Shown here one piece after another: positions 17,501 through 29,365 of a stretch of DNA of 64,000 nt. The DNA is taken from contig NC_043011.1 of NCBI RefSeq assembly GCF_006345805.1, positions 43,722,464 to 43,786,463 on the forward strand, read 5' to 3'. Made by a program: the position numbers and the translations under genes. This DNA is from Octopus sinensis. Taxonomy: Eukaryota. Under the pieces are notes generated by a model. That model had not been told where the DNA came from and ran no database searches. It saw only the letters and a program-made list of their open reading frames with translations. How positions within the stretch are numbered: position 1 is the first letter of the stretch; each line of letters begins with the position of its first letter.

Positions 17501-17749
17501 ATATATATATATATATATATATACATATACATATATGTATGTATATATATATACATAGGGAGAATTCACAAAAAAACAAAAGACGAAGACAGGTGGTGTA
17601 GACAACAAACAGATGTATTAGTTTAACGCTCGGAAAGTGAAAAAGTTTTTAATGTTTCGAGCCTATGCTCTTCCACAGAAAGGAACACAGAAAAAAAAAC
17701 AAGGAGAGAAAATAATGTGTAGTGGCTAGTGATCTATCATGGCATATAT

Positions 17750-19350
17750 ATGTGTGTGTATGTGTGTGTGTGTGTGTATCTATAGCTATCCCTTTATTGA
17801 CCTCTTTCTCTCCCTCTGTATCTCTCTTTGTAGTATGCATGTATGTATGTATGTATATATATATATATATATATATATATATAATATATTATATATTATA
17901 TATATATATTATATATATACACACACAGAGAGATAGCTATAGATACATTCATATATATATATATTATATATATATATATGTATATGTATATATATATTAT
18001 ATGTATGTATGTATGTATGTATGCATGTGTGTGTATATATATATATATATATATTATATATATATATATATATATATATATATATATTATATATATATAT
18101 TATATGTATGTATGTATGTATATATATTATATATATTATATATATTATATATATGTATGTATATATAAGTACTATATTATCTGATGTTTATGCGTTTGTA
18201 TTATATACATGCACACATAAATGTGACAGTATGAAAATGAAATACATGCATGTATGCTTGCATGTGTGTGTGTGTGTGTACATATGTATATGAATATATG
18301 ATACGTATATGAATATATGATACGTATATCTATATGTGTACATGTGAGTATGTATACATGGTTGTATGATACATTCTGAAGAACCATTGTATAGCTACTC
18401 TGTTCTATATTCATTACAGATGCTATCAGTTATGGTTTTACCATTCTTAAGAATGACTCGTTCTGCTCACTCTGTATAACCATTTCCTAAAACACCAAGG
18501 CTGTTCCCAACAGTAGCGGCTATTACTACTACTACTACTACTACTACTACTACTACCACCACCACCACCACCACCACCACTATTACTACCACCATTACTA
18601 CTACTACTACTATTACTACTACTACTACTACTACTACTACTACTACTACTACTACTACTACCACCACCACTACCACCACCACCACTATTACTACCACCAT
18701 TACTACTACTACTACTACTACTACCACCACCACCACCACCACCACCACTATTACTACCACCATTACTACTACTACTACTACACTACTACTACTACTACTA
18801 GTTCATAGTCTATTAGGAGTGAGTATATGTATGACTGGTATGTGCTAGTACTATATGTAACCATTTTTTACTGTCAAGATCCTGTTTCTCATATGGATAT
18901 GTGGGCATGCATGTATACACACACACACACACACATATATATATAGCCATATATCCATAATGTGTGTGTGTATAAATAAATATATATATGTACATATATG
19001 TATGTATGTATATATATATATATGTATATGTATATATATATATGTTTATGCAACCATTTCTATCTCCAACATCCTGTTTCTTATATGTATGTATGTATGC
19101 ATGTGTGTATATATATATATATTTATTTATATATATATATATCTGTAAATATATATACATATATATACATACATATATATATATATATATATACATACAT
19201 ATATATATATATATATATATATATATTATATATATATATATATATATATATATATATATATATATATATATATAATATATATATATATATATATGTATGT
19301 ATATATATATATATATATATATTATATATATATATATATATATATATTAA
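17750..19350. repeat. Compound microsatellite field, (TA)n/(TATG)n/(CTA)n(CCA)n, representative of dozens in the window
   Basis: Directly visible. Other large tracts at 2380-2780 (CA-rich), 6468-6628 (CTA), 43789-43955 (CTT) and 54155-54315 (GAT/GGT). Confidence 0.97.
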
Positions 19351-19430
19351 TTATTAAGGGTAGAAATTGATATTTATCAATTAAGACCAGTGGTCTAGCA
19401 TATTAAAAAAGAATCCGAAGATTAAATATT

Positions 19431-19646
19431 TATATATACCAATTAAGGACTGAACACGAAAAGTGGACAGTCAACATGCTAGATATAGACGTCAAATCGC
19501 CATTCACCACAAAAGATTATGTTCTCAGATCAAACTGTTGAGTTTGATCTGAGAACATAATCTTTTGTGGTGAATGGCGATTTGACGTCTATATCTAGCA
19601 TGTTGACTGTCCACTTTTCGTGTTCAGTCCTTAATTGGTATATATA
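19431..19646. repeat. Perfect palindrome with 106-bp arms and a 4-nt loop
   Basis: 19431-19536 is the reverse complement of 19541-19646. Loop GTTG. Flanked by (TA)n. Confidence 0.95.
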
Positions 19647-20719
19647 TATATATATATCTTAATATATACACTAACATACATGCATGTATGTATGTATGTG
19701 TCCCGATTAAATCACATTGTGACAGAATGTATGAGGTGACCAAAGGGTTTGGCATCAGGATGGGCTATCACGTTGTAAAACGGTGGTGGCAGCTGGGAGT
19801 GAATTGTAGTGGTGGTGGTCGTAGCAGTGACGATAACAATGATGATTATTATGATGATGATGATGATAATGATGATCATATTTGTCTATTGTATTTGAAG
19901 TTTGTACTTTGAATGTTAACATGGGAATACTCCGTGGTGTTAATGTTAAAGGTGGAAATCGCTCATTGTTTACTCCACTCGTTCCGAGTTCAAATCCCAT
20001 TAAGGTCAGCTTTTCCTTTCATCCCTTTGGGAGGACGGTGAGGTCAATAAAATAAATCGTTCACTGCATGTTGGGGGTTCGTTTGACTGATTAACCTCAC
20101 TCCTTTTTATAATTGCTGCCTTTGTATTTAAATTAGAAAATATCATTATTATCAAACTGTGATCTGGCAAAATCGTTGGCGCATCTCTCAGCTTTTTACA
20201 ATCTGAGTTCAAATCCCACCAATCTCAACTTTGCCTTTTATCTTTGCGGGGGGTCAGTAAAATAAGTACCATTCACGTACAAGGGTTGATATAATCGACT
20301 AGCCACCTACCCCCAAAATTTCAGGCGCTAGGCCCTTGTACCTAAAATACAAATCATTATTACTGTTGTTGTTATTATTATTATTATTACTATTATTATT
20401 ATTATTAATGCTTATCAGCATTTCATCCGTCTTTACGTTCAAAGTTCAAACTCAGCTGAGGCTGCATTTCAGGGTCAATAAAATAAGTACCAGTTAAATA
20501 CTGGGGTCAATGTAATCCACTTAACCCCCACCCAACACCACCCGAAATTTCTGGACTTTTGCCAAAATTTGAAATCATTATCGTTATTATTATAATTATA
20601 ATTATAATTATAATTATAATTATTATAATAATAATAATTATTATTATTATTATTGTTATTATTATACAGCATCTTAAGGTCAACAAAAATGGCTATCTTC
20701 CACATTTCATTCTTCCAGT

Positions 20720-21550
20720 ACCTTCTGGAGAAATGCTTTCCTTTTTTTTTTTTTATTTTTCTTCTGCGCCACCTTTACTTACTGTCTCCCATTTTCCTTG
20801 TTTCATCTGCCTCCTGGAGGAATATCTTATCTTTGGCCTCCAGCTACTGTCTCTAGGGAGAATGGGTATTTTCCTACTTTTAGTTTTTTTCTACTACCTT
20901 CTGGAGGAACATTTTCTATATTACCTCCATAGGGGTTGGTTGGGAAGGTTTTTGGGAGACATTTCTCATTATTACTCAAATACTGGTCTCTGAATGAATA
21001 TTTTGTACTTTATGGTTTTTTACTACCTTCTGGAGGTAATATCTTCCATGTTTGCTCCATGGTCCAGTTGCTGTGCTCTGGAGGAATGTCTTCCATGTTA
21101 CCTCCAGCTTCTGCTCTGTGGAAGAAAATCTTCCATGTTGCCTCCAGCTTCTGCTCTTGGGAGGAAAATCTTCCATGTTACCTCCAGGTTGCCTCCAGTG
21201 TCTGTTCTCTGGCAGAATATCTTCCATGTTACCTCCAGCTTCTGTTCTGTGGAGAATTATCTTCCATGTTACCTCCAGCTTCTGCTCTTGGGAGGAAAAT
21301 CTTCTACGTTACCTCCAGCTTCTGCTCTGTGGAAGCATATCTTCCATGTCACCTCCAGCCTCTGTTCTATGGAGGAATATCTTCTATGTCTTCTCCAGCT
21401 TCAGTGCTGAAGGATTATCTTTCATGTTACTTCCAGCTTTTATTCTGTGGAGGCATATCTTCCACTGATGTTCCATCTGCTGCCTTCTGGAAGAATATTT
21501 CTCCATTTCTTCCCCATTATTGCCTTCTGGAGATTATAACTTCCATATTT
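20720..21550. repeat. Degenerate 40-bp minisatellite
   Basis: Unit of about ATCTTCCATGTTACCTCCAGCTTCTGCTCTGTGGAGGAAT, homogeneous at 21040-21470 and decaying outward. Confidence 0.9.
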
Positions 21551-22403
21551 CTTGTTCTCTTCCATATTCCGTATTGAGCAAAACTTAACTTTTCTTCTCT
21601 CTCTCTCTTTCTCTTCTGTCTGTCTCTCTCTCATTGTTTCACTCTTTCTGTCACTTTGTATACCTCTGACTTGCACCCTCCTCTCTTCTCTCTCTCTCTC
21701 TCTGTCTTTATCTGTCTCTTTCTCTATCTCTATCTCAGCCCCTTTCCATTTCTCTCTCTTTGCCTACATCTCCCCCTCTCCCCCTCTTTTTCTCGATTCC
21801 TTTGATCCTTAATCCTTCTTTTAATCCACTTAATCTCCACCACACTACCATTTCTGCTGTTGCTGTTGTTATATATTTAGTTAATCCTTTGGCATTGAGG
21901 TTCCTCCATGAAAACTAATCAAATTGCTTAGTTAATCAAATTGTTTTGAATTAATTATGTATTATCTCGTAGCTTCAAGATTTCAATGACGTGATGTTTA
22001 TTTTTGGAATGAAAAATTGTAGGGTAGGTGTGAGAGGCTGGATCTGGCCTTTTTGAATATAAAACAGGTAGATTCTTTTGGCTTGATACAGCTGCTTAAA
22101 TGCTAAAGGATTAACAGGAACAACATCAGCAACAATAACCATAATGGTTCAATACCATTCGATCAATTAATGTCTCAGTTCAAGGAAGGGGAGGGGGTGG
22201 TTTGTATTTACAAAAAAACAAAAAATATATATATATATTGCTAAAGTGAAAAACTAAAAAATTTTATAAAAGATATTGAAAACAAAAATATTAAATAAAA
22301 TAAATTATATAAAAATAATAAAACGAAATGAATTCTACAAAAAGTGTGTTGTGTTTTATTTATCTATTTATTTATGAATTTATTTATTTGTTTGTTTGTG
22401 TGT

Positions 22404-28400: not shown

Positions 28401-28534
28401 TCAATGGGCGATTATTTCAGAATGGGCTATTCTTCTATCATGTCTGTCTTTATTGATCTTAAAATTCTTCACTGATATTTTGACATGAAATACAGAAACC
28501 TTTAATATTTCAGATAACCTATTCAAAAATAACA

Positions 28535-28595
28535 ATGCCACACATTTTGATATTTTTCCTGACTATCTCCGTAGCAAAATCAGCCATAACTACAG
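28535..28595 (+). CDS. Uncharacterised membrane protein, exon 1 (signal peptide)
   Basis: ATG in an ACAATG context. Reads MPHILIFFLTISVAKSAITT(G). The phase-1 donor AG|gtgatt matches the phase of the next exon. Confidence 0.65.
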
Positions 28596-28669
28596 GTGAT
28601 TTATTATTATTATTATCATTATTATTATTATTATTATTATTATTATTATTTTTTTTTTTTTTCTTCTTC

Positions 28670-28953
28670 TTTCAAATTTGCTTCCATTTCTTGCCGAGTG
28701 TCTTCCCGACTCCTAAGGCAAAGAAACTCATAGTATACATTGGCAGGCCATTAAACTAACTCAATAGTTCGTTCATTTTTTTTTTAAGTTAAATTAAAAT
28801 ACATGGTAGTAATAGTTCTCACATCGACAATGCTCTTCTCAATACGTGTGATGTACCAGTTAAGACAATCTTTTGCACTTCTTGCAGGGATGGTAAGCCA
28901 GGGATCATTCTCATATAATTTTAGGTTCCCTTCTTGATCATTCCTAGTGCTCC
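28670..28953 (-). mobile_element. R4/Dong-clade 3' end; a second 3'UTR copy lies at about 29390-29563
   Basis: Minus strand reads GALGMIKKG...LQEVQKIVLTGTSHVLRRALSM*. Flanked by (TAA)n. Confidence 0.8.
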
Positions 28954-29030
28954 ATTATTATTATTATTATATTATTATTATTATTATTATTATTATTATT
29001 ATTATTATTATTATCAATAATAATAATAAA

Positions 29031-29365
29031 AGTCAAAATTAAAAGAAGGGTGCCATTGTTATCTAGTGAACGATATTTCGACATCTCGTGTGTCTTCAAC
29101 ATGTTAAAAAAATAATTTTGCCAATCTACTTCATTTTGGTTAATATATAAAAGTTTGAGGTAACTCCTCCAGAAGATATAGAGTCAAAATTAAAAGAAGA
29201 GTGCTATTGTTATCTATCCTTTATAGATGGTTGACAAAATTATTTTTTGAACCAGTTGAAGACACACGGGATGTCGAAAAAATCGTTCACTAGATAACAA
29301 TGGCACTCTTCTTTTAATTTTTGACTCTATTATCTTCTGGAGCAGTTAACTTAATCCTTTATATT
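29031..29365. mobile_element. Penelope-like partial-tandem plus inverted terminal repeat in (TAA)n
   Basis: 29031-29123 and 29140-29216 are both reverse complements of parts of 29231-29365. Hammerhead-like motif at 29248-29289. Confidence 0.65.

What the first reader, a model, noticed from the sequence alone, without database searches (positions are those of the whole stretch)
17645..29289. Two unrelated repeat families share the same non-canonical hammerhead core (CUGUnGA-A)
Seen: the minus strand at 17645-17682 reads CTTT-CTGTGGA-A-GAGC-atag-GCTC-GAAA-CATTA-AAA. The two copies at 29067-29107(-) and 29248-29289(+) have cores ATGTTGA and CAGTTGA and together reconstruct TGAAC-CTGTTGA-A-GACA-cacgaga-TGTC-GAAA-TA-TC-GTTCA. 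The stems differ completely between families, yet both replace the conserved A of CUGAnGA with U and add one A before stem II. Established: Penelope-like elements carry minimal type-I hammerheads with short palindromic stem III that are thought to act as dimers. Inference: a selected variant core that standard CUGANGA searches would miss, rather than random decay. I cannot say whether it has been described.
Basis: partly seen in the sequence, partly recalled or inferred. Interest (0 to 1): 0.72.

Follow-up and report, generated by a model that had tools for sequence, protein, structure and literature searches.

The report
Twice-evolved A6U Penelope hammerheads
Two unrelated jumping-gene families in this animal genome carry the small self-cutting RNA motif typical of Penelope-like elements with the same normally fixed core letter changed (A6 to U) in nearly all copies, a change that likely arose separately in each and is predicted to slow cutting, which is untested.

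Summary
Both motifs are Penelope-type minimal hammerheads. The extra A is the published norm for this group; only A6U is unusual. A6U is the family state, not decay: 91 of the first 100 listed among 3,326 family-A matches, and 61 of 63 dispersed family-B copies.

Family A is the pseudo-LTR of a recently active RT + GIY-YIG element, with U6 in both repeats of full-length copies. Inside its catalytic core only N7 and H17 vary between subfamilies, the two positions hammerheads leave free. Family B is a 151-160 nt non-coding unit with one compensatory stem-II change; one subfamily adds U4A.

Each family's nearest relatives keep A6, so U6 likely arose twice, amid other changes at positions 3, 4 and 8. 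Mutational data predict weak cutting, U6 is predicted to zip the core shut, and 0 of 30 long copies start at the cut site. Best reading: a slowed, likely protein-assisted hammerhead whose fold is still selected.

I found no paper on natural A6U, but could not read the main survey (Lunse 2017). This scan noted A6U before, here and in other genomes.

The parts
17558..17743 (-). 5'-truncated copy of the 3' pseudo-LTR of family A (Neptune-type Penelope-like element, older subfamily), lying in a (TA)n tract
   Evidence: 40 other genome matches scored, at 90-94% identity; longer copies run upstream into a GIY-YIG frame
17647..17682 (-). Minimal type-I hammerhead, family A: stem I, core C3-A9 at 17678-17672 with U6 at 17675, extra A at 17671, stem II 17670-17659, predicted cut between 17651 and 17650
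   Evidence: sequence; family state
29023..29216 (-). Family B unit (151-160 nt non-coding repeat), inverted partner of the plus-strand copy, ending in an (ATT)n tract
29067..29107 (-). Minimal hammerhead, family B, with U6 at 29099; C3 is mutated to A in this copy
29231..29360 (+). Family B unit, subfamily with U4A
29248..29289 (+). Minimal hammerhead, family B, core with A4 (29254) and U6 (29256); stem III damaged in this copy

Best explanation
Both motifs are minimal hammerheads of Penelope-like retroelements in which A6 is replaced by U as the family state, likely through two separate events, and they likely work as slowed self-cutting RNAs that would need a dimer partner and the element's own protein to fire. 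Shown: family A is the pseudo-LTR of an RT + GIY-YIG element that spread recently with U6; family B is a short non-coding unit related to the pseudo-LTR of a different element that keeps A6; the rest of the family-A motif is held constant while N7 and H17 drift. Inferred: U6 removes contacts of the CUGA turn and can pair with A15.1, so the single RNA folds into a closed rod. Most transcripts would then stay uncut and be copied through the site, with occasional cutting (perhaps followed by circle formation) enough to keep the core under selection.
For: U6 in 91 of the first 100 of 3,326 A matches (hand tally), 121 of 129 held A copies, 61 of 63 dispersed B matches (hand tally) and 69 of 73 held B copies. 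Of 15 long A elements, 7 show the motif in both repeats 4.3-4.5 kb apart; 21 of 22 motifs with the family-A stems read CTGTTGA-A. Their ORFs hit RVT_1 above cut-off in 3 of 3, and young endonucleases differ by 0-0.03 changes per site from their fork. Young versus old A subfamily majorities differ at 1 of 36 motif positions (N7) against 15 of 66 downstream (p = 0.0055). H17 is U 85, A 37, C 6, G 1 of 129, as the NUH rule requires. In contigs of four organism labels only N7 and H17 are listed as variable inside the motif. B stem-II pair is A-U in 42 and G-C in 25 of 73. The endonuclease tree joins A with A6 families (SH-aLRT 100) apart from family D, and B flanks align with D (z up to 14) but not with A. 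Predicted pairing of U6 with A15.1 is 0.98 in young A, and 0.00 at that position in all 6 A6 motifs folded. A natural A6C ribozyme cuts at under 0.1 per min (PMC3088659). A Penelope-like hammerhead cut only with protein added, and cutting was not needed for insertion in vitro (PMC11167929).
Against: No cleavage data exist for these RNAs. Pairwise mutagenesis of one hammerhead found low activity for all single and double changes in the CUGA turn except the C3:G8 swap (PMC9901934), so A6U, and more so U4A+A6U, may be dead. 0 of 30 long A copies begin at the predicted cut; this fits no cutting equally well, and no canonical-core control was obtained. Family B tolerates further core changes (A4 in 25, U3 in 7 of 63), which looks like relaxed selection. 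The U6-A15.1 pairing is weak in several U6 motifs (0.04-0.70 in the other 11 folded). A-to-T made up 21 of 55 scored changes at a stem-II A (hand count), so two A-to-U events have about a 15% chance without selection. The tree was the quick version, and family B has no protein to place on it.
Confidence: 0.55

Rival explanations
1. The U6 motifs no longer cut; the hammerhead-shaped fold is kept as a binding or positioning signal for the element's reverse transcriptase/endonuclease.
For: Low activity of CUGA-turn mutants (PMC9901934). Cutting not needed for insertion in vitro in another Penelope-like element (PMC11167929). 0 of 30 copies start at the cut. Several lineages here changed positions 3, 4, 6 or 8. 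A predicted closed rod in young A.
Against: The free and fixed positions in family A match the catalytic consensus exactly (N7 four states, H17 avoids G), including the palindromic stem III that only matters for the active dimer. A protein site would not be expected to copy this pattern, although G at H17 may also be mutationally rare.
Confidence: 0.25
2. U6 is fully tolerated in the dimeric, 9b-containing, protein-bound form, so these are normal-speed ribozymes that process the RNA into circles.
For: Core otherwise intact in a recently active family. Family B occurs as permuted, more-than-unit copies and as a 151-nt tandem array, as expected from circular templates. Read-through of the cut site is also expected for circles.
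Against: Published A6 changes lower activity. Even canonical minimal hammerheads cut poorly in vitro (PMC4209133). Tandem arrays can arise at the DNA level.
Confidence: 0.12
3. The motif is a functionless relic: A6U hitch-hiked in two master copies and the apparent conservation reflects recent shared ancestry.
For: A-to-T is common here. Naiad elements spread without canonical hammerheads (PMC8557442). Family B cores keep degrading.
Against: The motif is much more conserved than its flank between A subfamilies (1 of 36 against 15 of 66). There is a compensatory stem-II change within B. The same state is seen in four organism labels.
Confidence: 0.08

Closest known systems
Minimal type-I hammerheads (min-HHR) of metazoan Penelope-like elements, Cervera and De la Pena 2014 (PMC4209133; read: parts 1-2 of 4 of the text and the whole supplement as text)
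   Same: Place in pseudo-LTRs of RT + GIY-YIG elements; extra base between 9 and 10.1; G10.1-C11.1; palindromic 15.2-16.2 without a real stem III; short stem I; nearby inverted copies; many consensus families per genome. The U3:A8 covariant described there is the state of family D here.
   Different: All 56 representatives in their Fig. S3 have A6 and the descriptor requires cuganga. Families A and B have U6, and a B subfamily has A4 as well.
Natural core variants of hammerheads, Perreault et al. 2011 (PMC3088659; passages)
   Same: Natural change at position 6 (A6C in a phage ribozyme) with low but detectable activity; U4C in a viroid ribozyme is also mentioned as tolerated in vivo.
   Different: Rare single examples; the term A6U does not occur in the text. 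Here U6 is fixed in thousands of copies of a recently active element.
Non-LTR retrozymes, Cervera and de la Pena 2020 (PMC7229834; passages) and Li et al. preprint 10.64898/2026.07.22.740005 (part 1 of 5)
   Same: Family B is a short, AT-rich, non-coding unit with a type-I hammerhead, found singly and in tandem, and related to the pseudo-LTR of a Penelope-like element, as the preprint proposes for retrozymes.
   Different: Described retrozymes carry canonical cores and give circles of about 170-400 nt (repeats 150-450 bp). B is 151-160 nt with a minimal, one- or two-change core; no circle was shown here.
Poseidon element of the green anole, Frangieh et al. 2024 (PMC11167929; parts 1-2 of 4)
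   Same: Pseudo-LTR hammerhead, tail downstream of it, insertions copied from uncut RNA.
   Different: The only tested case has a protein-assisted hammerhead with C3 and G8 probed; position 6 variants were not mentioned in the parts read.
Small hammerhead variants of Penelope-like elements, Lunse, Weinberg and Breaker 2017 (PMC5785218; seen only as a reference-list title)
   Same: By its title, small variants tied to Penelope-like elements that cleave as dimers.
   Different: Cannot say: the paper is not held. It may already record position-6 variation.

Membership tests
Metazoan PLE minimal hammerhead (min-HHR) | Core CUGANGA (A6 fixed) | tested here: not met
   U6 in 121 of 129 A copies and 69 of 73 B copies
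Metazoan PLE minimal hammerhead (min-HHR) | Extra unpaired base between 9 and 10.1 | tested here: met
   A in 129 of 129 A copies (sample partly chosen with this letter fixed) and in 98 of the first 100 core-free matches
Metazoan PLE minimal hammerhead (min-HHR) | G10.1-C11.1 closing pair and paired stem II | tested here: met
   one compensatory change in B (A-U 42, G-C 25 of 73)
Metazoan PLE minimal hammerhead (min-HHR) | GAAA-NN-U-H with palindromic 15.1-16.1 | tested here: met
   ACGU in A and AUAU in B; H17 is G in 1 of 129 A and 0 of 73 B copies
Metazoan PLE minimal hammerhead (min-HHR) | Stem I of 3-7 pairs closing the junction | tested here: met
   4 pairs in A, 5 or more in B; no covariation seen in stem I within either family
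Metazoan PLE minimal hammerhead (min-HHR) | Located in pseudo-LTRs of a Penelope-like element | tested here: met
   Family A: both repeats of full-length elements. Family B: only by homology to the 3' repeat of family D
Hammerhead ribozyme | Self-cleavage 3' of H17 | not testable with these tools
   No assay; all runs laid were contigs, which cannot show ends; 0 of 30 genomic 5' ends at the site
Neptune-type EN+ Penelope-like element (family A) | Single ORF with RT and C-terminal GIY-YIG | tested here: met
   RVT_1 E 3e-8 to 2e-7 in 3 of 3; GIY-YIG in 2 of 3 but below the curated cut-off
Neptune-type EN+ Penelope-like element (family A) | CX2-5CxxC linker before GIY-YIG; microsatellite target | tested here: met
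   C-x4-C-x2-C motif before the YIGQT stretch; copies end in (TA)n; feature as described in PMC8557442
Neptune-type EN+ Penelope-like element (family A) | RT phylogeny with reference Neptune, Nematis and Poseidon elements | not tested
   No reference proteins were held; Nematis shares the linker, so the clade name is provisional
Non-LTR retrozyme (family B) | Short non-coding tandem units each with a type-I hammerhead | tested here: met
   151-nt period, 46 motifs found in L125 and L126
Non-LTR retrozyme (family B) | Canonical active hammerhead and expression as circular RNA | tested here: inconclusive
   Core is non-canonical (A4 + U6 in 41 of 46 array units); circles not testable with contigs

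The most novel reading that the evidence does not exclude
Penelope-like elements have repeatedly evolved a gated hammerhead: U6 pairs with the invariant A15.1 and locks the single RNA in a closed rod, and the element's own protein or a dimer partner opens it so that cores scored as dead in vitro (A6U, even U4A+A6U) cut in vivo and yield circles as small as 151 nt. A large class of such ribozymes would be invisible to CUGANGA searches.
Probability: 0.2. Interest if true: 0.8.

Novelty: new variant of a known kind. Interest (0 to 1): 0.5.

Why it matters
Why Penelope-like elements carry hammerheads is an open question: the motif is nearly universal in the group, yet it cuts poorly and was dispensable for insertion in the one in vitro test. 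This genome offers a natural series with matched relatives: A6 against U6 in two separate lineages, plus U4C, U4A and U3:A8 states, one of them in a recently active, ORF-intact element. Assaying these would show whether the elements need cutting or only the fold, and whether a supposedly invariant core base is free in dimeric, protein-assisted hammerheads. It also means descriptor-based counts, and reports that some elements lack a hammerhead, can miss whole families.

Tried and rejected
Rfam scan of the window: no hammerhead among 150 of 205 matches shown. 'The extra A is novel': rejected by the published consensus and descriptor. 'U6 is genome-wide': rejected, 16,286 canonical-core matches against 225 control. 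A third large U6 family: not found. The first 100 of 877 matches (control 290) were mostly mutated A copies, 10 mutated copies of a canonical family and background; the first 100 of 761 (control 375) added only subfamily B2. Three apparent U6 hits (L252-L254) are chance matches inside a GIY-YIG coding stretch. An autonomous element carrying the B motif with U6: none among 50 loci of the related family D. A loop-II pseudoknot with upstream sequence: considered by eye, not conserved, dropped. Expression: no RNA holder listed on record; contigs show presence only. Laying runs on the window's B copy said little about the core because that copy has an insertion. The careful tree did not finish; the quick tree is reported, and rows under 100 aa, without a scored motif or identical were left out. 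The global alignment upstream of the A motif was poor, so only the downstream flank was used for the p value. A Pfam scan of a 259-aa A fragment gave 0 families, and one of family-D frames failed on stop codons. A canonical-core control for the 5'-end test was not completed, so the 0 of 30 result has no baseline. Literature searches listed no paper on a natural A6U hammerhead; Lunse 2017 and Hammann 2012 were not held, and figure logos and unread supplements could hold position-6 data.
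Full report
Observation. The three motifs are present as described. The window lies in a 2.7-Gb, microsatellite-rich genome (G000), which I take to be an animal's from its repeats. The copy at 17647-17682(-) has core CTGTGGA, an extra A, a 4-pair stem II and GAAA-CA-T-T. The two copies at 29067-29107(-) and 29248-29289(+) form an inverted pair between (ATT)n tracts, each damaged at a different place.

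The extra A is ordinary. Cervera and De la Pena list a conserved base between 9 and 10.1, G10.1-C11.1 and a palindromic 15.2-16.2 as features of Penelope-element minimal hammerheads (PMC4209133). Their consensus is CUGANGAH, all 56 representatives have A6, and their descriptor needs cuganga. So only A6U departs from the described motif, and that descriptor would miss it.

U6 is the family state. With the eight core letters left free, family A gave 3,326 matches against 0 for the control. Of the first 100 listed (all on one contig), position 6 was T 91, C 7, A 2, and N7 was G 53, T 22, C 18, A 7 (hand tally). Family B gave 178 matches against 0. Of the first 100, 37 lie in one tandem array; among the other 63, position 6 was T 61 and A 0, position 4 was T 34, A 25, G 2, C 2, and position 3 was T in 7 (hand tally). 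The genome also holds 16,286 canonical-core matches against 225, so U6 is specific to these families.

Family A is a recently active Penelope-like element. Long copies run into a GIY-YIG frame, and a protein search found open frames up to 1,009 aa. Among 15 long elements fetched, 7 show the motif in both repeats 4.3-4.5 kb apart, and 21 of 22 motifs with the family-A stems read CTGTTGA-A, the other having C6. RVT_1 passes its cut-off in 3 of 3 proteins; GIY-YIG is seen in 2 of 3, below cut-off. The cysteine linker and (TA)n targets fit the Neptune/Nematis type (PMC8557442 passages); the clade name was not tested by phylogeny. Young endonucleases sit 0-0.03 changes per site from their fork.

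The family-A motif is constrained like a hammerhead. In 129 held copies, U6 is in 121, N7 takes four states and H17 is U 85, A 37, C 6, G 1 (stem II and GAAA served as the anchor). Majority sequences of the young and old subfamilies (37 copies each) differ at 1 of 36 motif positions, N7, but at 15 of 66 aligned downstream positions (one-sided Fisher p = 0.0055). Contigs from four runs with four organism labels show only N7 and H17 varying at 3% or more inside the motif (6 weaker rows not shown; depth-weighted, and these runs cannot be taken as RNA).

Family B is a short non-coding relative of another element. Copies are permuted, often inverted, 151-160 nt units in (ATT)n tracts. One array has a 151-nt period with CAGTTGA-A in 41 of 46 scored units. 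Subfamilies B1 and B2 differ by a compensatory stem-II pair (A-U 42, G-C 25, mixed 6 of 73; one event). An autonomous-type family D, about 30% identical to family A in protein, has the same stem I, stem III and related stem II and tail. Its core has A6 in 27 of 27 readable motifs among 30 loci, mostly as the U3:A8 covariant. None of 20 further loci has U6, and one of the most divergent has a fully canonical core. Downstream flanks of B align with D (z up to 14) and not with A (z -2 to 2).

Two origins are likely. In the endonuclease tree (53 rows, quick method) the 22 family-A rows (SH-aLRT 96) group with A6 families that share the same stem II (100), apart from D. All 11 motifs found behind those sister endonucleases among 20 loci keep A6, and 8 of them have C at position 4. 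One origin would need two or more reversals or a module swap. The convergence is less striking than it looks: at a stem-II A, decayed copies showed 27 G, 21 T and 7 C (hand count of 55 clear rows), so both events giving U has about a 15% chance. The wider pattern is that positions 3, 4, 6 and 8 shift between lineages here, while G5, A9, the extra A, G12-A15.1 and U16.1 stay in the family majorities.

Mechanism. Published data predict a cost. A natural A6C ribozyme cuts at under 0.1 per min (PMC3088659 passages), and CUGA-turn mutants of one hammerhead were all low except the C3:G8 swap (PMC9901934 passages). Folding natural motifs shows U6 pairing with A15.1 at 0.98 in young A and 0.04-0.70 in the other 11 U6 motifs, against 0.00 at that position in 6 A6 motifs, giving a closed rod (prediction only). 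Of 30 long young-A copies, 0 begin at the predicted cut, 29 read through it and 1 starts 33 nt below. This excludes routine 5' processing without re-joining but does not separate no cutting from cutting plus circularisation, and it lacks a canonical control. In the anole element the hammerhead cut only with protein, and catalytic mutants still inserted in vitro (PMC11167929, parts 1-2 of 4). Taken together I favour a slowed, likely protein-assisted ribozyme (0.55) over a dead fold kept as a signal (0.25), full activity (0.12) or a relic (0.08).

Novelty. It works like a Penelope-element minimal hammerhead but fails that family's A6 criterion, so it is a variant. Nine literature searches listed no natural A6U hammerhead. 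The largest survey of such variants (Lunse 2017) could not be read, so 'undescribed' is unsure. Earlier notes of this scan report A6U in this genome and in other genomes; I did not check the other genomes.

Noticed in passing
L359, L360, L363, L366, L375, L376, L377 (behind the endonuclease frame): A sister Penelope-like lineage of family A, with open frames up to 1,008 aa, has core CCGACGA-A (U4C) while older relatives are canonical.
   Followed up: partly
L279-L328: Family D carries a U3:A8 core, some copies with C4 as well, and often a G10.1-U11.1 pair; one divergent copy (L321) is canonical.
   Followed up: partly
L125-L126 (G000:C1 about 11,474,160-11,482,065): About 8 kb tandem array of the 151-nt family-B unit with two core changes (A4 and U6) in 41 of 46 scored units; a retrozyme-like array at the small end of the described range.
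   Followed up: partly
window 28674-28841 and 29395-29565: A 170-nt direct repeat (95% identical) flanks the inverted family-B pair. Read on the minus strand it resembles the end of a non-LTR retroelement frame that targets (ATT)n (resemblance recalled, not tested).
   Followed up: partly
L379-L408: 5' ends of long family-A copies: 9 of 30 fall 39-178 nt above the cut site (just upstream of the motif) but only 1 of 30 in the roughly 140 nt below it; small sample.
   Followed up: no
G000:C5 121,298,334-121,299,378; C8 39,642,773-39,644,231; C15 1,450,365-1,451,528: The family-A 5' junction recurs at periods of about 475-570 nt, suggesting short tandem units derived from the pseudo-LTR.
   Followed up: no
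L312-L314: Family-D-like endonuclease copies clustered on one contig with shared downstream sequence and no pseudo-LTR; segmental duplicates or a domesticated copy.
   Followed up: no
L255-L257: A small repeat family with several CTGANGA-like boxes and a CTGTTGA box within about 130 nt; the pairing does not fit a simple type-I motif.
   Followed up: no
window 13158 (-): A canonical CTGATGA box with a 5-pair stem II and GAAA but no convincing stem I; chance or a decayed motif.
   Followed up: no
window 9356-9902: A 42-nt tandem minisatellite with copies up to 98% alike.
   Followed up: no
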